Origin: Escherichia coli
GTDB lineage: Bacteria > Pseudomonadota > Gammaproteobacteria > Enterobacterales > Enterobacteriaceae
NCBI RefSeq assembly: GCF_017348835.2
Contig: NZ_CP071375.1
DNA length: 64,000 nucleotides
Direction: 5' to 3' (one strand)
How positions within the stretch are numbered: the first letter of the stretch is position 1; each line of letters begins with the position of its first letter. Under the pieces are notes generated by a model. That model did no database searches, was not told the DNA's origin, and worked only from the letters and a program-made list of their open reading frames with translations. This document shows, one piece after another, positions 13,338 through 27,498 of the stretch. Made by a program: the position numbers and the translations under genes.

Positions 13338-13661
13338 TTGCGTATTCTTTTTGTCTGTTCGCTATTGTTACTTTCTGGATGCAGCCATATGGCTAACGAT
13401 AGCTGGAGCGGGCAGGATAAAGCTCAACACTTTATCGCCTCGGCGATGCTTTCCGCCGCCGGAAATGAATATTCACAGCATCAGGGGATGAGCCGGGATC
13501 GCAGTGCCATGTTTGGATTGATGTTCTCTGTCAGTTTGGGGGCGTCAAAAGAGCTTTGGGATAGCCGCCCCGAAGGGAGCGGCTGGAGCTGGAAGGATTT
13601 GGCCTGGGATGTCGCCGGTGCAAGCACCGGCTATACCGTCTGGCAACTGACCCGTCACTAA
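13338..13661 (+). CDS. yfiM: Small lipoprotein YfiM
   Basis: ORF 13317..13661; likely TTG start giving [15 protein letters not shown] with a lipobox cysteine; exact start uncertain. Confidence 0.7.
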
Positions 13662-14956
13662 AGACGCATCCCCTTCCCTTTGCGATGTAGCATCAAAGAA
13701 ACCAGAAACGCCACCACGGCCATCAAGGTCACATACCAGAAGAAGGCTGTTTCCATTCCTATTGATTTCAGCGACAACGCTACGTACTCCGCCGAACCAC
13801 CAAATATAGCATTAGCGACCGCATATGACAGACCAACGCCTAATGCGCGAACCTGTGCCGGGAACATCTCAGCCTTCAGTATTCCACTGATTGATGTATA
13901 AAAACTCACTATCAGCAGGGCACACATCACCAGACCAAAAGCGGCATAAGGCGAGGAAACGTTTTGCAATGCTGAGAGAATAGGAACGGTAAAAATGGCT
14001 GCCAGCGAACCGAAACATAACATTGAGGTACGGCGACCAATCTTATCCGACAGCGCGCCAATGAGTGGTTGAATAAGCATGAATACAAACAATGCGGCAG
14101 TCATAATGCCACTCGCCACGTTGGCATGCATTCCCGCAGTATTTACCAGATACTTCTGCATATAAGTGGTGAAGGTATAGAAACAAAGGGAGCCCGCAGC
14201 GGTAAAACCGAGAACCATGATGAATGCACGGCGATTGCGCCATAATCCTTTCAGAGATCCAGCTTCTTTTAAAGCGCGCGTTTCTTGTTGCGAAGTTTCA
14301 TCTAACTGACGACGTAACCACAACGCCACAACAGCTAACACAGCTCCTAACGCGAAAGGAATACGCCATCCCCACTCTCTGAGTGCAGCGTCTTCCATGG
14401 TGTGTTGTAAAACCACGACAACCAGTAGGGCTAGCAGTTGTCCGCCGATCAACGTCACATACTGAAATGATGCGTAAAAACCTTTGCGCCCTTCAACGGC
14501 AACTTCACTCATATAGGTGGCGCTGGTGCCATATTCTCCGCCAACGGATAATCCCTGAAATAAACGCGCGAGAAGCAATAATGCCGGAGCCCACGTACCG
14601 ATTGTTTCATAACCAGGCAAACAGGCGATTACCAGTGAGCCGAAACACATCATACACACCGATAGCAGCATCGATTTTTTGCGACCATGTTTATCGGCTA
14701 TGCGGCCAAATAGCCAACCGCCTATTGGGCGCATCAGGAATCCCGCAGCAAAAACACCTGCTGTTTGTAGTAGTTGAGTCGTCGTGTTCCCGGAAGGGAA
14801 GAAGATGTGGGCAAAGTAGAGTGAACAGAACGAGTAGACATAGAAATCGAACCACTCGACCAGATTACCTGAAGAGGCCCCCACAATCGCCCAAATGCGG
14901 CGACGAGTATCACTACTTGTCAGTTTGCTGTCTGCCGTTACAGTACTTTCAGCCAT
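13658..14956 (-). CDS. kgtP: Alpha-ketoglutarate:H+ symporter (MFS transporter)
   Basis: ORF 13658..15058; start chosen at [11 protein letters not shown] (432 aa); 12-TM major-facilitator architecture. Confidence 0.9.
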
Positions 14957-15222: not shown

Positions 15223-15240
15223 TTTTTTCTGCGCCAATGC

Positions 15241-15272
15241 AAAAAGGCCATCCTGACGGATGACCTTTCGCT
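15241..15272 (-). terminator. rrn operon terminator downstream of 5S rRNA
   Basis: Hairpin aaaggtcatccgtcaggatggcctttt on the minus strand immediately 3' of the 5S gene. Confidence 0.55.
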
Positions 15273-15279
15273 TAATTTG

Positions 15280-15399
15280 ATGCCTGGCAGTTCCCTACTC
15301 TCGCATGGGGAGACCCCACACTACCATCGGCGCTACGGCGTTTCACTTCTGAGTTCGGCATGGGGTCAGGTGGGACCACCGCGCTACTGCCGCCAGGCA
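15280..15399 (-). rRNA. rrfG: 5S ribosomal RNA
   Basis: 120-nt reverse-complement match to the E. coli 5S sequence (TGCCTGGCGGC...CTGCCAGGCAT). Confidence 0.95.
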
Positions 15400-15493: not shown

Positions 15494-18398
<2,905 letters not shown>

Positions 18399-18591
18399 TC
18401 ACAACCCGAAGATGTTTCTTGCGATCCATCATCTTGTTGCGAAAATTTGAGAGACTCACGAACAACTTTCGTTGTTCAGTGTTTCAATTTTCAGCTTGAT
18501 CCAGATTTTTAAAGAGCAAATATCTCAAACATCACCCGAAGATGAGTTTTGAGATATTAAGGCAGGTGACTTTCACTCACAAACCAGCAAG

Positions 18592-18667
18592 TGGCGTCCC
18601 CTAGGGGATTCGAACCCCTGTTACCGCCGTGAAAGGGCGGTGTCCTGGGCCTCTAGACGAAGGGGAC
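18592..18667 (-). tRNA. gltW: tRNA-Glu (anticodon UUC), 16S-23S spacer tRNA
   Basis: 76-nt reverse-complement match to GTCCCCTTCGTCTAGAGGCCCAGGACACCGCCCTTTCACGGCGGTAACAGGGGTTCGAATCCCCTAGGGGACGCCA. Confidence 0.95.
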
Positions 18668-18752
18668 GTATCAGTCTGCTTCGCAAGACGCCTTGCTTTT
18701 CACTTTCTATCAGACAATCTGTGTGAGCACTACAAAGAACGCTTCTTTAAGG

Positions 18753-20294
<1,542 letters not shown>

Positions 20295-20418
20295 AAAAGT
20301 TTGATGCTCAAAGAATTAAACTTCGTAATGAATTACGTGTTCACTCTTGAGACTTGGTATTCATTTTTCGTCTTGCGACGTTAAGAATCCGTATCTTCGA
20401 GTGCCCACACAGATTGTC

Positions 20419-20438
20419 TGATAAATTGTTAAAGAGCA
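20419..20438 (-). promoter_or_regulatory. rrn leader boxA antitermination element
   Basis: Minus-strand sequence TGCTCTTTAACAATTTATCA, the conserved rrn boxA. Confidence 0.7.
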
Positions 20439-20469
20439 GTGCCGCTTCGCTTTTTCTCAGCGGCGCGAG

Positions 20470-20505
20470 GTGTGCATAATACGCTTTCCCGCTACAGAGT
20501 CAAGC
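20470..20505 (-). promoter_or_regulatory. rrn P2 promoter
   Basis: Minus strand reads TTGACT - 16 nt - TATTAT followed by GCACACC, as in rrn P2. Confidence 0.65.
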
Positions 20506-20589
20506 ATTTATTTTTGCTTTCTCTGCCGGAATTCTCAGGAGAACCCCGCTGACCCGGCGGCGTGTTTGCCGTTGTTCCGTGTCAGTGGT

Positions 20590-20700
20590 GGCGCATTATA
20601 GGGAGTTATTCCGGCCTGACAAGCGAAAAATATAAAAACTTTATCGTTCGCTCATTTTTCAGACAAAACATCTTAAATATAGTCTTTTCCGTCTAACTTA
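20590..20700 (-). promoter_or_regulatory. rrn P1 promoter with upstream A/T-rich UP element and Fis region
   Basis: Minus strand reads CTTGTCAGGCCGGAATAACTCCCTATAATGCGCCACCACTGAC (the rrn P1 core) preceded by an A/T-rich tract. Confidence 0.7.
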
Positions 20701-20705
20701 TAGAC

Positions 20706-20735
20706 AAAAACGAGCCCCGAAGGGCTCGTTTTATC
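20706..20735. terminator. Hairpin terminator 3' of clpB
   Basis: Inverted repeat aaaacgagccccgaagggctcgtttt. Confidence 0.55.
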
Positions 20736-20737
20736 AT

Positions 20738-23311
20738 TTACTGGACGGCGACAATCCGGTCTTCATTAACTTCCAGGCGAATCACTTTACCCGGAACCAA
20801 TTCACCAGACAGTATTTGCTGTGCCAGCGGGTTTTCGATCTGCTGCTGAATTGCACGTTTCAGAGGACGTGCACCATAGACCGGATCGTAACCGTTCTCG
20901 CTCAGCAGTTTCAGCGCCTCGTCAGAAATGTGGATTTCATAACCACGTTCTTCCAGACGTTTATACAGACGTTTCAATTGAATCTGCGCAATCGACGCAA
21001 TGTGCTGTTCACCCAGCGGATGGAAGACCACCACTTCATCGATACGGTTAATGAATTCCGGACGGAAGTTATGGCTAACCACACCGAGCACCAGCTCTTT
21101 CATGTGCGCATAATCCAGTTCACCGAAGCGTTCCTGAATCAGATCGGAACCGAGGTTAGAGGTCATAATGACAACCGTATTACGGAAGTCGACCGTTCTC
21201 CCCTGCCCGTCAGTCAGACGCCCATCATCCAGTACCTGCAACAGAATATTGAAGACATCCGGATGCGCTTTTTCCACTTCATCCAGCAGGATGACGGAAT
21301 ACGGACGACGACGCACCGCTTCGGTCAGGTAGCCACCTTCTTCATAACCGACATATCCCGGAGGCGCACCAACCAGACGAGACACCGAGTGTTTCTCCAT
21401 AAACTCGGACATATCGATACGGACCATCGCCTCGTCGCTATCAAACATAAAGTTCGCCAGCGCCTTACAAAGCTCTGTTTTCCCCACACCAGTTGGGCCG
21501 AGGAACAGGAATGAACCAATCGGGCGATTTGGATCCGCCAGCCCCGCACGGCTACGACGAATAGCGTTAGATACCGCATCAACCGCTTCGTTCTGACCAA
21601 TTACGCGATGGTGCAGTTCTTGCTCCATACGCAGCAGTTTTTCGCGCTCGCTTTCCATCATGCGAGAAACCGGAATCCCCGTCCAACGCGCCAGCACTTC
21701 AGCAATTTCAGCGTCGGTCACTTTATTACGCAACAGACGCATAGTTTTGCCTTCGAGCTGCGTTGCGGCTTCCAGTTGCTTTTCCAGTTCCGGGATTTTG
21801 CCGTATTGCAGTTCAGACATCCGCGCCAGGTCACCCACACGGCGAGCCTGTTCAATAGCGATTTTCGCCTGTTCCAGTTCCGCTTTAATGGTCTGCGTAC
21901 CAGAAAGCGATGCCTTCTCTGCTTTCCACTCTTCTTCTAACTCGGAGTACTGACGTTCTTTGTCGCTCAGTTCTTCGTTGAGCATATCCAGACGTTTTTT
22001 ACTGGCTTCATCAGACTCTTTCATTAACGCCTGTTGTTCCAGTTTGAGCTGGATGATACGGCGATCGAGTCGGTCGAGTTCTTCTGGTTTTGAGTCAATC
22101 TGCATACGAATGCTGGATGCTGCTTCATCGATCAGGTCGATGGCTTTATCCGGCAGCTGACGGTCAGCAATGTAGCGATGAGACAACGTCGCCGCTGCAA
22201 CAATTGCCGGGTCAGTAATTTGCACATGGTGGTGCAATTCGTAACGTTCTTTCAGGCCACGCAGAATCGCAATGGTATCTTCAACAGAAGGCTCGGCAAC
22301 AAACACTTTCTGGAAACGACGTTCCAGCGCAGCATCTTTTTCGATGTACTGGCGATATTCGTCAAGCGTCGTGGCACCTACGCAGTGCAATTCACCACGC
22401 GCCAGCGCCGGTTTCAGCATGTTTCCGGCGTCCATTGCGCCATCGGCTTTACCCGCGCCGACCATGGTATGTAATTCGTCGATAAACAGGATGACGTTGC
22501 CTTCCTGTTTGGCAAGGTCGTTAAGCACGCCTTTTAAACGTTCTTCAAACTCACCGCGATATTTCGCCCCAGCCACCAGCGCGCCCATATCCAGCGCCAG
22601 TACCCGGCGGCCTTTCAACCCTTCCGGCACTTCGCCGTTGATAATACGCTGCGCCAGACCTTCAACGATGGCAGTTTTACCGACGCCGGGTTCACCAATC
22701 AGTACCGGGTTATTTTTAGTACGACGTTGCAGCACCTGAATGGTACGGCGAATTTCTTCATCACGACCAATCACCGGATCGAGTTTGCCCTGTTCGGCTC
22801 GTTCGGTAAGGTCGATGGTATATTTTTTCAAAGCCTGACGTTGGTCTTCAGCACCTTGATCGTTCACGCTTTCACCTCCACGCATTTGTTCAATCGCTTG
22901 AGTAATGTTGGCGGTGGTCGCCCCTGCTGCTTTCAGGATGTCGGCCAGTGTGCCGCGAGACTCAAGTGCCGCCAGAACGAACAGTTCTGACGAGATAAAG
23001 TTATCACCACGTTTTTGCGCCAGCTTGTCGCAAAGATTAAGAACGCGCACCAGATCCTGTGATGGCTGGACATCACCACCAGTACCTTCAACCTGCGGTA
23101 AACGATTTAATGCCTGATTGATATCTGTGCGCAACTGGCCAGCATTTATGCCAGCGGATGTTAATAAAGGACTAACCGAACCCCCTTCCTGATTCAGCAG
23201 GGCGCTCATTAAATGAAGTGGTTCGATAAATTGGTTGTCGTGCCCGAGTGCAAGTGATTGGGCATCGGCAAGAGCAAGCTGGAATTTATTAGTAAGACGA
23301 TCCAGACGCAT
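20738..23311 (-). CDS. clpB: Hsp100 disaggregase chaperone ClpB
   Basis: ORF 20738..23323; start chosen at [10 protein letters not shown] (857 aa); two AAA+ modules with Walker A/B and a coiled-coil middle domain. E. coli ClpB is known to have a second internal GTG translation start producing a shorter isoform. Confidence 0.95.
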
Positions 23312-23344
23312 AACTCCTCCCATAACGGATCAAAGTTGCTACTG

Positions 23345-23382
23345 GAGATTAAATGAGGTCATCCCTCAATTATTCAAGGTTA
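23345..23382 (-). promoter_or_regulatory. Sigma-32 (heat-shock) promoter of clpB
   Basis: Minus strand reads CTTGAA - 14 nt - CCTCATTTA, fitting the sigma-32 consensus (CTTGAAA / CCCCATnT). Confidence 0.6.
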
Positions 23383-23440
23383 TTGACCAGATTAATGTGA
23401 AAAGAAAATCACGCGTACCGGATCGTCTTGATTCTTTAGG

Positions 23441-26044: not shown

Positions 26045-26058
26045 CAGCCCTTGAGCTG
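26045..26058. repeat. Left copy of the IS4 target-site duplication
   Basis: cagcccttgagctg immediately precedes the IS4 left end; the identical 14 bp recur at 27485..27498. Confidence 0.75.
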
Positions 26059-27484
26059 TAATGCCAGTCAGTTAAGCAACTGACTGGCTCTTTTTCGGGG
26101 CTGTGGGGTATTTCCAGGGCCTCTCCTTTACCACTCTCGGGAAGGCCCTTTCCCTTCTTGTCGGTAATTTCACAAGTTGTCCCATACTTGCAAGATCGCG
26201 CATCAGCTCCGGTATACGTCCCGGTGAAGCGCCCTGCAATGTCATCAGCATTCTCATCACCATTCCGCATGATTCTGAGAAGCTCAGTTGATTTGGCCAG
26301 TAACCTTTCAGATGTTCCGCCATTTTAATCATCTGATATCTCACCAGATTATAAGCCAGTAAGACACCCCACAGCTCTTGCTCCACAAGCTCAGGCTTTT
26401 TACTTCTCAGCGTCAGCCTGCTCAGTTGCATCGTCTGTTTTATCTCCCTGTATCCCAGTTCGATTTCCCAGCGATGACTGTACAGATCCGCCATTTCTCC
26501 TCCGGGGAAGCGCATGGCGTCCGTCATCGACGTCAGCAGATGGCAGACTTTTCCTTTGCGCGTCACGGTCAGCAGGCGGGCTGTCACCTCATTTCCCAGT
26601 CCCGGCCACTTTTTTCGTGCCTGCGGGCTGGTTTTCAGCTTCACCAGATGATCGCCTTTACCCAGTTTTCTGATCTCTTCATATTGCGCTCCCTTTCTGA
26701 GAGGGATCATCCAGTGGCGGTGTTCTCCCGCCAGGCTCCAGGCATTTAACAATCCCAGTGAGTAATAACCTTTATCCATTAACGTCAGAGTGTTATCGCC
26801 GGTTTGTTCTATAAGTTGCTCAGCAAGCTCATTTTCGCTGTTCTTCATCGTGCCGAAGGCTGCAGCCGTCAGCAGATGGCTGGTCAGTTCCATCTGGCAG
26901 ACCATTTTGACCTGCGGGTAGAGCGCCGGGGTCCCGGCATGTGTCTGGCGAGGGAAGGCTGCATCGTTCTCTGGTGTATCCGGTGTGCGCCAGAACACAC
27001 CATCGATGGCCAGCAGGGTCAGGCCGCACCAGTGCGGATGCGGCGTGGCGTTATGCCAGAGCTGCGCTGTTTTCGTGAACACGCGGCGGACAGCCTCACT
27101 TCCCAGGCGCTGGCGGGCCTGAATAACAGCACTGGGGGCAACGAAGGTGCGATTGCCCGGCAGCATGATGTCCAGGCGATTCACAATCTGGTGAAGAGGT
27201 TCTTTACGCTCAAGCGCCATGCCAACAATACACCAGACCATCATTTCGAGGGGAAGACGGCGCTTGCGTAGCGTTACAGTACCTGATTCGGCAAGGCAAC
27301 GAGAGATGAGTTCGGGGTCGAGGTAATCTCCCAGAGAAGTCAGTGGGTTACGCAGAGAATCGTAACGGGATACCAGATCAAGAGCCTGTCCAATGTGCAT
27401 AAAAAAATCCGGAAACGAGTGAGCGTTTCCGGATTCTTACACAGCCACTGGATCGGTCAACTGATCCTTAACTGATCGGCATTA
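26059..27484 (-). mobile_element. IS4 insertion sequence, complete (1426 bp)
   Basis: Terminal inverted repeats taatgccagtcagttaag... (left) and ...cttaactgatcggcatta (right), a single 442-aa DDE transposase ORF, and flanking direct repeats. Confidence 0.9.
26072..27400 (-). CDS. insG: IS4 transposase
   Basis: 442-aa ORF ([16 protein letters not shown]...) recognised as the IS4-family DDE transposase. Confidence 0.9.
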
Positions 27485-27498
27485 CAGCCCTTGAGCTG
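27485..27498. repeat. Right copy of the IS4 target-site duplication, continuing into the original T tract of the bamD terminator
   Basis: cagcccttgagctg followed by ccgttttttt. Confidence 0.75.

What the first reader, a model, noticed from the sequence alone, without database searches (positions are those of the whole stretch)
20419..20700. Textbook rrn P1/P2 promoter and boxA architecture upstream of the 16S gene
P1 core (TTGTCA ... TATAAT GCGCCACC discriminator), the P2 promoter, and boxA are all readable on the minus strand, identifying an intact, highly expressed rRNA operon. I assign it to rrnG from its position between kgtP and clpB.
Basis: partly seen in the sequence, partly recalled or inferred. 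Interest (0 to 1): 0.2.

Follow-up and report, generated by a model that had tools for sequence, protein, structure and literature searches.

The report
Ordinary E. coli rrnG ribosomal-RNA promoter region
This is the well-known tandem P1/P2 promoter and antitermination leader of the E. coli rrnG ribosomal RNA operon, correctly read and correctly assigned; the only wrinkle is that parts of the operon carry sequence types that K-12 has in other rrn operons.

Summary

- **P1:** -35 TTGTCA (20622-20617), 16-bp spacer, -10 TATAAT (20600-20595), discriminator GCGCCACC (20594-20587), predicted +1 A at 20586.
- **P2:** TTGACT (20503-20498), 16-bp spacer, TATTAT (20481-20476).
- **Leader:** boxB hairpin (20464-20441), exact boxA TGCTCTTTAACAA (20438-20426), boxC.
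- **Operon:** full-length 16S, tRNA-Glu, 23S and 5S follow.
- **Flanks:** clpB ends 116 bp upstream of the P1 -35. kgtP lies downstream of the 5S gene.

The unique sequence on both sides matches only K-12 rrnG among the seven K-12 operons, so the rrnG assignment holds.

The operon interior is a mosaic relative to K-12:

- The P1-P2 inter-promoter segment is the K-12 rrnA/B/C type (1 difference, against 10 for K-12 rrnG).
- The 16S-tRNA spacer is the short rrnC/E type.
- The 16S gene carries the exact rrsH helix-33 allele.

This fits the known exchange of sequence among rrn copies, and similar alleles are common in complete E. coli genomes. The window is 99.99% identical to E. coli strain PE164. 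Nothing here is new, so interest is low. "Highly expressed" is inferred, not shown.

The parts
20738..23311 (-). clpB coding sequence, the upstream neighbour that defines the rrnG context
   Evidence: It matches the NCBIfam ClpB equivalog NF008118 at 1926.7 bits over residues 1-857. It is annotated as clpB at the matching position in PE164 and K-12.
20703..20735 (-). clpB intrinsic terminator hairpin (GC-rich stem, UUCG loop, U-run), directly upstream of the rrnG activator region
   Evidence: The RNA fold gives -20.3 kcal/mol with z = -6.1, and 0 of 200 shuffles fold as well. The consensus scanner missed it, probably because the A/U pairs extend the stem into the T-run.
20691..20705 (-). Fis-like 15-mer GTCTATAAGTTAGAC centred at -112 relative to the P1 start
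   Evidence: It matches 10 of 11 specified positions of GNNYAWWWWWTRNNC. This is motif-level evidence only, and the consensus is taken from my own knowledge.
20650..20664 (-). Fis-like 15-mer GTCTGAAAAATGAGC centred at -71, the position of Fis site I in rrnB P1. It holds both upstream SNPs relative to K-12 rrnG (20663 and 20655).
   Evidence: It aligns with the rrnB 15-mer GGTTGAATGTTGCGC. Fis binding was not tested.
20626..20646 (-). A+T-rich UP element region of P1 (-60 to -40): CGATAAAGTTTTTATATTTTT, 18 of 21 bases A/T
   Evidence: The position definition comes from PMC7822876. It is identical to K-12 rrnG.
20617..20622 (-). P1 -35 hexamer TTGTCA
20595..20600 (-). P1 -10 hexamer TATAAT, with a 16-bp spacer from the -35
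20586..20594 (-). P1 G+C-rich discriminator GCGCCACC (20594-20587) and the predicted start A at 20586, nine bases after the -10
   Evidence: The sequence is. The rule comes from PMC7822876. The start site itself is inferred by identity to rrnB P1.
20504..20585 (-). Inter-promoter segment between the P1 start and the P2 -35, of the K-12 rrnA/B/C sequence type rather than the K-12 rrnG type
   Evidence: It has 1 difference from K-12 rrnA, rrnB or rrnC and 10 from K-12 rrnG.
20498..20503 (-). P2 -35 hexamer TTGACT
20476..20481 (-). P2 -10 hexamer TATTAT with a 16-bp spacer. It is followed by GCACACCTCGCG, where the T at 20468 is C in K-12 rrnG, A, B and C.
20441..20464 (-). boxB-like hairpin GCCGCU...AGCGGC of the nut-like leader
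   Evidence: A 6-bp stem appears in both the MFE and centroid folds. The sequence is identical to the K-12 rrnG leader.
20426..20438 (-). boxA, TGCTCTTTAACAA, the NusB/NusE binding element
   Evidence: It is an exact match with a chance expectation of 0.13. It is invariant in all seven K-12 operons. Its function is described in PMC6614801.
20398..20411 (-). boxC-like GU-rich element TGTGTGGGCACTCG (boundaries approximate)
   Evidence: It is invariant in all seven K-12 operons. Its role is described in PMC6614801.
18753..20294 (-). 16S rRNA gene (rrsG locus) carrying the exact rrsH-type helix-33 allele
   Evidence: Rfam RF00177 matches model positions 1-1533 at 1575.6 bits. It has 1 difference from K-12 rrsH and 17 from rrsG.
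18592..18667 (-). Spacer tRNA-Glu(UUC), the gltW position, preceded by a short 85-bp spacer of the K-12 rrnC/E type
18506..18518 (-). Second, spacer boxA-like element TGCTCTTTAAAAA upstream of 23S
15494..18398 (-). 23S rRNA gene
   Evidence: Rfam RF02541 matches model positions 1-2925 at 2871.3 bits.
15282..15397 (-). 5S rRNA gene
   Evidence: Rfam RF00001 matches model positions 1-120.
15239..15271 (-). Operon terminator hairpin followed by a U-run, immediately after 5S
   Evidence: The fold gives -20.6 kcal/mol with z = -4.8, and 0 of 200 shuffles fold as well. It is homologous to the K-12 rrnG sequence after rrfG.
13658..14956 (-). kgtP coding sequence, the downstream neighbour that defines the rrnG context
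   Evidence: NF007710 matches residues 1-432 at 951.5 bits. It is annotated as kgtP at the matching place in K-12 and PE164.

Best explanation
This is the control region of the E. coli rrnG ribosomal RNA operon, transcribed on the minus strand.

**P1.** P1 is a sigma-70 promoter with near-consensus hexamers set on a suboptimal 16-bp spacer. An 8-nt G+C-rich discriminator places the start nine bases after the -10. Together these give a short-lived open complex whose output follows initiating-ATP levels, ppGpp and DksA. Its strength comes from an A+T-rich UP element (-40 to -60), contacted by the alpha subunit C-terminal domains, and from Fis bound further upstream.

**P2.** P2 lies about 117 bp downstream and supplies more constitutive, basal transcription.

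**Leader.** Transcripts from both promoters carry boxB, boxA and boxC. On these elements NusB/NusE (S10), NusA, NusG, SuhB and S4 convert RNA polymerase into a Rho-resistant antitermination complex. That complex reads through 16S, tRNA-Glu, 23S and 5S to a hairpin terminator upstream of kgtP.

**Basis.** Shown here: the sequence elements, their spacing, their identity with the K-12 elements, the intact downstream genes and the rrnG flanks. Inferred from the literature on K-12 rrnB and rrnG: the start sites, factor binding and expression level.

**Mosaic.** Relative to K-12, the locus carries an rrnA/B/C-type inter-promoter segment, an rrnC/E-type spacer and an rrsH-type 16S helix 33. The most likely cause is gene conversion among rrn copies.
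For: Elements and spacing:
- P1, P2 and boxA sit at the stated coordinates with the expected spacing.
- The P1 core is identical to K-12 rrnG, A, B and C.
- The 171-nt leader from boxB to 16S is identical to K-12 rrnG.

Operon:
- There are full-length 16S, 23S and 5S matches and one tRNA-Glu.
- Hairpin terminators flank the operon, with z = -6.1 and z = -4.8.

Locus identity:
- clpB lies upstream and kgtP downstream.
- The unique flanks match only rrnG.
- The 466-bp region is found next to clpB in 5,413 records of complete E. coli genomes.
- The window is collinear with strain PE164 at 99.94-99.99% identity.

Mechanism from papers:
- The P1 features are described in PMC7822876.
- The roles of UP, Fis, P1 and P2 are in PMC4696680, which also ranks the K-12 rrnG promoter fragment second strongest of the seven.
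- The boxB-boxA-boxC antitermination complex was assembled on rrnG leader RNA in PMC6614801.

Mosaic:
- Helix 33 is identical to rrsH.
- 9 of the 14 differences between the window and PE164 across 64 kb cluster within 16 nt of helix 33.
Against: No evidence contradicts the identification. Several points remain untested or qualified.

- Nothing was measured: start sites, Fis binding and expression level are all inferred.
- The window is not identical to the characterised K-12 rrnG promoter region. There are two substitutions in the Fis-site-I-like 15-mer (20663, 20655), ten differences between P1 and P2, one in the P2 spacer (20485) and one at 20468 next to the expected P2 start. K-12 reporter data therefore transfer only approximately.
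- The 78-nt boxB-boxA-boxC stretch does not fold better than shuffles (z = -0.33). The boxB hairpin rests on identity with K-12 rather than on thermodynamics.
Confidence: 0.97

Rival explanations
1. The operon is a different rrn operon, or a hybrid made by reciprocal recombination between two rrn operons (a large inversion or transposition), so that only one flank belongs to rrnG.
For: The interior is not K-12 rrnG-like. The inter-promoter segment is the A/B/C type, the spacer is the C/E type, and the 16S is closest to rrsH.
Against: - Both flanks are rrnG-specific: 2 differences in the 118 bp upstream and 18 in the 300 bp downstream, against more than 70 and more than 200 for every other operon.
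- Gene order across the whole 64 kb is collinear with PE164, and around the operon with K-12.
- The foreign segments are short internal patches. That pattern fits gene conversion rather than crossover.
Confidence: 0.01
2. The promoter-like elements are present, but the operon is inactive or decaying (a pseudo-operon).
For: None was found. The only supporting point is that expression was not measured.
Against: - The rRNA models match end to end at very high scores, and the tRNA-Glu is intact.
- The P1 core and the leader are identical to functional K-12 sequences.
- The same arrangement is conserved in 5,413 records of complete E. coli genomes.
Confidence: 0.01
3. The sequence differences from K-12 rrnG (the Fis-site-I variants, the A/B/C-type inter-promoter segment and the T at 20468 in P2) give this allele a distinct regulatory behaviour, rather than being neutral results of homogenisation.
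For: - Both upstream SNPs fall inside the 15-mer centred at -71, and both bring it closer to the Fis consensus.
- The seven K-12 rrn promoter fragments differ 6-7 fold in reporter strength (PMC4696680).
Against: - Every variant base between P1 and 16S is one already found in other K-12 rrn operons.
- Alleles at least 99% identical occur in 1,125 of 5,428 records, and there is a continuum of intermediates.
- No functional data exist.
Confidence: 0.1

Closest known systems
E. coli K-12 MG1655 rrnG (rrsG-gltW-rrlG-rrfG, b2591-b2588) and its P1/P2 control region
   Same: - The flanks are the same, with clpB upstream and kgtP downstream.
- The clpB terminator, the UP region, the P1 core and the boxB-boxA-boxC leader are the same, with 0 differences in 171 nt of leader.
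- It carries the spacer tRNA-Glu and has no distal tRNA.
- The terminator after 5S is homologous.

   Different: - Two SNPs lie in the -71 Fis-like site.
- There are 10 differences in the 82-nt inter-promoter segment and 2 in the P2 core.
- The 16S-tRNA spacer is 85 bp rather than 171 bp.
- The 16S gene has 17 differences, including the whole helix-33 block.
- The K-12 rrsG 'foot' variants are absent.

E. coli K-12 rrnB P1/P2, the reference rRNA promoters
   Same: From the P1 -35 to the 16S gene the window differs from rrnB at only 4 positions in 328 nt. The P1 core is identical.
   Different: Everything upstream of the -35 is unrelated in sequence, including the UP element, the Fis sites and the neighbouring gene (72 differences in 118 nt). 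The chromosomal location also differs.
E. coli strain PE164 (NZ_CP114128.1) rrn operon next to clpB
   Same: - The window is collinear with PE164 at 99.94-99.99% identity across all 64 kb.
- It shares the same mosaic promoter region and the same IS4 copy between bamD and raiA.

   Different: There are 14 differences in total.
- Nine cluster in 16S helix 33.
- One is at 20367 in the leader, where PE164 is the odd one out.
- One is in the terminator stem at 15263.
- One is an indel in glaH.

Phage lambda nut sites (boxA-boxB)
   Same: Both are RNA elements that recruit NusB/NusE and NusA to make RNA polymerase resistant to termination (PMC6614801).
   Different: The order is reversed here (boxB then boxA), there is an extra boxC, and SuhB and S4 take the place of the N protein.

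Membership tests
E. coli rrnG locus (positional orthologue) | clpB immediately upstream on the same strand | tested here: met
   clpB lies at 23311-20738 on the minus strand and matches the ClpB equivalog at 1927 bits. The annotated K-12 and PE164 contexts agree.
E. coli rrnG locus (positional orthologue) | kgtP immediately downstream of the 5S gene | tested here: met
   kgtP lies at 14956-13658 on the minus strand. The 300 bp after 5S differ from K-12 rrnG at 18 positions, against 219-316 for the other operons.
E. coli rrnG locus (positional orthologue) | Operon layout 16S, tRNA-Glu, 23S, 5S with no distal tRNA | tested here: met
   Searches show this layout, and no tRNA lies between 5S and kgtP.
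E. coli rrnG locus (positional orthologue) | Operon-specific sequence upstream of the P1 -35 matches rrnG | tested here: met
   There are 2 differences in 118 nt from K-12 rrnG, against 72-101 for the other six operons.
E. coli rrnG locus (positional orthologue) | Internal variable segments of the K-12 rrnG type. This does not define the locus, but it is what a sequence-only assignment would rely on. | tested here: not met
   The inter-promoter segment is the A/B/C type, the spacer is the C/E type, and 16S helix 33 is the rrsH type.
rrn P1-class sigma-70 promoter | Near-consensus -35 and -10 hexamers with a 16-bp spacer | tested here: met
   TTGTCA, 16 bp, TATAAT, matching 11 of 12 positions. 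It occurs once in the window, with 0 expected by chance.
rrn P1-class sigma-70 promoter | G+C-rich 8-nt discriminator with the start nine bases after the -10 | tested here: met
   GCGCCACC is followed by A at 20586. The definition comes from PMC7822876. Actual use of that start was not measured.
rrn P1-class sigma-70 promoter | A+T-rich UP element at -40 to -60 | tested here: met
   18 of 21 bases are A/T at 20646-20626, and the stretch is identical to K-12 rrnG. Binding by the alpha C-terminal domain was not tested.
rrn P1-class sigma-70 promoter | Fis binding sites upstream of the UP element | tested here: inconclusive
   15-mers matching 10 of 11 positions are centred at -71 and -112. The motif is degenerate and no binding data exist. 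The paper that mapped the rrnG sites (Hirvonen 2001) is not held.
rrn P1-class sigma-70 promoter | Control by growth rate, ppGpp/DksA and initiating NTP | not testable with these tools
   This needs expression measurements.
rrn antitermination (nut-like) leader | boxA consensus TGCTCTTTAACAA | tested here: met
   It is an exact match at 20438-20426.
rrn antitermination (nut-like) leader | boxB hairpin upstream of boxA and boxC downstream | tested here: met
   A 6-bp stem forms at 20464-20441. The whole stretch is identical to the K-12 rrnG leader. The fold statistics alone are not significant (z = -0.33).
rrn antitermination (nut-like) leader | Assembly of the NusA/B/E/G, SuhB and S4 complex, and resistance to Rho | not testable with these tools
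   This was shown for K-12 rrnG leader RNA in PMC6614801. The window's leader is identical to K-12 rrnG from boxB through boxC.

The most novel reading that the evidence does not exclude
In this lineage the strong rrnG promoters drive a 16S rRNA with the rrsH-type helix-33 'beak' allele, which in K-12 is confined to rrnH and has been linked to stress-response phenotypes. They do so from a promoter region with an improved -71 Fis-like site and an rrnA/B/C-type inter-promoter segment. If these differences are functional, the mix of ribosome variants and its growth-phase control would differ from K-12. rrn gene conversion would then be re-wiring which rRNA variant is expressed when.
Probability: 0.07. 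Interest if true: 0.35.

Novelty: already known. Interest (0 to 1): 0.06.

Why it matters
It matters little beyond annotation. It confirms that the window is E. coli chromosome around rrnG and that the operon and its control region are intact.

The one useful point is methodological. rrn operons should be named from their unique flanks and not from internal sequence. Promoter-proximal, spacer and 16S segments move between operons by gene conversion, so K-12 operon-specific alleles are not operon-specific across the species. The rrsG 'foot' and rrsH 'beak' variants and the rrnG inter-promoter segment are examples.

Tried and rejected
- **Terminator scanner.** The consensus scanner reported no terminator after clpB and none on the minus strand after 5S. 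Direct folding shows strong hairpins at both places. The scanner probably lets A/U pairs extend the stem into the T-run, so its negatives were set aside.
- **Folding the leader.** The 78-nt boxB-boxA-boxC stretch folds no better than shuffles (z = -0.33). Thermodynamics alone does not support the leader structure. Its identification rests on the exact boxA and on identity with K-12.
- **P2 start site.** I tried to find the mapped rrnB/rrnG P2 start to decide whether the C-to-T change at 20468 is the initiating nucleotide. Two literature look-ups did not give it, so this stays open.
- **Fis site map.** Hirvonen et al. 2001, which maps Fis sites and UP elements for all seven P1 promoters, is not in the held library.
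- **A source error.** PMC4696680 states that rrnD carries tRNA-Glu and rrnE carries tRNA-Ile/Ala. The MG1655 annotation shows the opposite: Glu in rrnB, C, E and G, and Ile plus Ala in rrnA, D and H. I followed the annotation.
- **Hybrid operon.** A hybrid operon made by rrn-rrn crossover was considered and rejected, because both flanks are rrnG.

Full report
**What is there**

Read on the minus strand, the stretch 20740-20295 contains the following elements, in order.

- The clpB stop codon (TAA, 20740-20738).
- A GC-rich hairpin with a UUCG loop and a U-run (20735-20703). It folds at -20.3 kcal/mol with z = -6.1 against shuffles.
- An A+T-rich region.
- P1: TTGTCA (20622-20617), a 16-bp spacer, TATAAT (20600-20595), then GCGCCACC (20594-20587) and an A at 20586.
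- An 82-nt inter-promoter segment.
- P2: TTGACT (20503-20498), a 16-bp spacer and TATTAT (20481-20476).
- A hairpin GCCGCU...AGCGGC (20464-20441).
- TGCTCTTTAACAA (20438-20426).
- TGTGTGGGCACTCG (20411-20398).
- The 16S 5' end at 20294.

The promoter scanner independently picks exactly these two minus-strand promoters, at 11 of 12 and 10 of 12 consensus positions. The 36-nt P1 pattern is unique in the window, with zero matches in 100 shuffles. Allowing up to one mismatch, boxA occurs exactly once in the leader and once in the 16S-23S spacer (18518-18506). Chance expectation is 0.13 matches.

**What it controls**

Rfam finds end-to-end matches on the minus strand:

- 16S at 20294-18753
- 23S at 18398-15494
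- 5S at 15397-15282

ARAGORN finds tRNA-Glu(UUC) at 18667-18592. No tRNA follows the 5S gene. Immediately after 5S there is a hairpin and U-run at 15271-15239, folding at -20.6 kcal/mol with z = -4.8. The operon is intact from promoter to terminator.

**Which operon**

- **Upstream neighbour.** The upstream ORF (23311-20738, minus strand) matches the ClpB equivalog over its full length.
- **Downstream neighbour.** The downstream ORF (14956-13658, minus strand) is the kgtP transporter.
- **K-12 context.** In K-12 MG1655 the annotated order is kgtP, rrfG, rrlG, gltW, rrsG, clpB, ryfD, yfiH, rluD, bamD, raiA, pheL, pheA. The window has the same order, and Rfam also finds RyfD and the phe leader where expected.

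I then counted differences per segment.

| Segment | vs K-12 rrnG | vs the other six operons |
|---|---|---|
| 118 nt between the clpB stop and the P1 -35 | 2 | 72-101 |
| 300 nt after 5S | 18 | 219-316 |

The 466-nt query spanning the clpB end and the leader is covered by at least 80% in one place in 5,413 records from 5,414 genomes. In every hit listed, that place lies next to an annotated clpB.

**The qualification: a mosaic interior**

From the P1 -35 inward the window no longer follows K-12 rrnG.

| Segment | Differences from K-12 operons |
|---|---|
| P1 core, 37 nt | 0 vs rrnG, A, B, C |
| Inter-promoter, 82 nt | 1 vs rrnA, B, C; 10 vs rrnG |
| P2 core, 38 nt | 1 vs rrnC; 2 vs rrnG, A, B |
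| 16S-tRNA spacer | 85 bp, the rrnC/E type (1-2 differences); K-12 rrnG and rrnB have a 171-bp spacer |
| 16S gene | 1 vs K-12 rrsH; 17 vs rrsG |

- In the P2 core, A at 20485 is the base found in rrnC, D, E and H. T at 20468 is the base found in rrnD, E and H.
- In the 16S gene, positions 997-1044 (helix 33) are identical to rrsH. The K-12 rrsG 'foot' variants are absent.

The window is collinear with E. coli strain PE164 at 99.94-99.99% identity. Nine of the 14 differences across 64 kb cluster within 16 nt of helix 33. That pattern is what a short, recent gene-conversion tract would leave.

Homogenisation of rrn copies by recombination is established knowledge. It is discussed in PMC4696680 and PMC6312700, which also notes that 6 of 7 operons in O157:H7 EDL933 carry the rrsH helix-33 sequence.

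Alleles of the 197-nt UP-to-P2 stretch that are at least 99% identical to the window occur in 1,125 of 5,428 records, with a continuum of intermediates. The mosaic is therefore common and unremarkable.

**How it works**

This section rests on the literature for K-12 rrnB and rrnG. It was not shown on this sequence.

- **P1.** PMC7822876 defines rRNA P1 promoters by three features: an A+T-rich UP element at -60 to -40 contacted by the alpha C-terminal domains, a G+C-rich discriminator at -8 to -1, and a start nine bases after the -10. The last two make the open complex unstable and sensitive to initiating ATP and to DksA/ppGpp. All three sequence features are present here. The UP region 20646-20626 is 18 of 21 A/T.
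- **P2 and Fis.** PMC4696680 summarises two points. P1 dominates in fast growth and P2 gives basal expression. Three to five Fis sites lie upstream of each P1. In their reporter assay the K-12 rrnG fragment ranked second of seven.
- **Fis-like sites.** I find Fis-like 15-mers centred at -71 (20664-20650) and -112 (20705-20691), each matching 10 of 11 specified positions. The -71 site aligns with the 15-mer at the same position in rrnB. The only two upstream substitutions relative to K-12 rrnG (20663 and 20655) fall inside it, and both move it toward the consensus. This is motif-level evidence only.
- **Antitermination.** PMC6614801 used rrnG leader RNA to assemble the antitermination complex. 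NusB/E binds boxA, SuhB binds the boxA-boxC linker, NusA binds boxC, and NusG and S4 also join. The window is identical to K-12 rrnG from boxB through boxC.

**Verdict**

'Highly expressed' remains an inference. This is a textbook, already-known element in a strain very close to a sequenced E. coli, so interest is low.

Two minor open points remain. It is not known whether the T at 20468 alters the P2 initiating nucleotide, because I could not retrieve the mapped P2 start. It is also not known whether the -71 site variants change Fis activation.

Noticed in passing
window 19257-19298 (16S positions 997-1038, helix 33): The 16S gene at the rrnG locus carries the exact K-12 rrsH helix-33 'beak' allele, and the whole gene differs from rrsH at one position (1120). 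Nine of the 14 differences between the window and strain PE164 over 64 kb lie within 16 nt of this helix, which looks like a recent gene-conversion tract.
   Followed up: partly
window 18668-18752: The 16S to tRNA-Glu spacer is 85 bp, the K-12 rrnC/E type with 1-2 differences. K-12 rrnG and rrnB have a 171-bp spacer.
   Followed up: partly
window 26059-27484: An IS4 copy lies between bamD and raiA. Its transposase ORF is at 26072-27400 (minus strand) and matches NF033592. It is flanked by 14-nt direct repeats CAGCCCTTGAGCTG at 26045-26058 and 27485-27498, spaced 1440 bp apart, and it sits inside the hairpin after bamD. It is absent from K-12 at this site and present in PE164.
   Followed up: partly
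window 46061-51299: ssrA (tmRNA, 46061-46423) is followed directly by a 1571-aa autotransporter ORF (46584-51299, minus strand), annotated ypjA/ehaD in PE164. No integrase or prophage sits at the tmRNA 3' end. From memory, K-12 has the CP4-57 prophage there.
   Followed up: partly
window 54310-54385: ARAGORN calls this tRNA Met(CAT), but the identical gene in PE164 is annotated tRNA-Ile. It is presumably the lysidine-modified CAU isoleucine tRNA (ileY).
   Followed up: no
window 18406-18514: Rfam's 'StyR-44' ncRNA family matches the spacer immediately upstream of 23S. The hit reaches into the spacer boxA-like element at 18518-18506. It is therefore probably part of the pre-rRNA rather than a separate gene.
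   Followed up: no
window 15263: The terminator stem after 5S has a T where PE164 and K-12 rrnG have C, which gives a G-U wobble pair. The loop sequence also differs from K-12 (GTCA against TGAC).
   Followed up: partly
window 57428-58510: glaH (csiD) is an uninterrupted ORF here. The PE164 copy is annotated as frameshifted and has one extra T, at about window position 58044.
   Followed up: partly
window 23292-23430: The RyfD small RNA (Rfam RF02768, 125 bits) overlaps the 5' end of clpB on the same strand, as annotated in K-12.
   Followed up: no
window 20531-20536: The inter-promoter segment contains GAATTC (an EcoRI site). At the T at 20532 the window keeps the K-12 rrnG base inside an otherwise rrnA/B/C-type stretch, so the mosaic is patchy at the single-base scale.
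   Followed up: no
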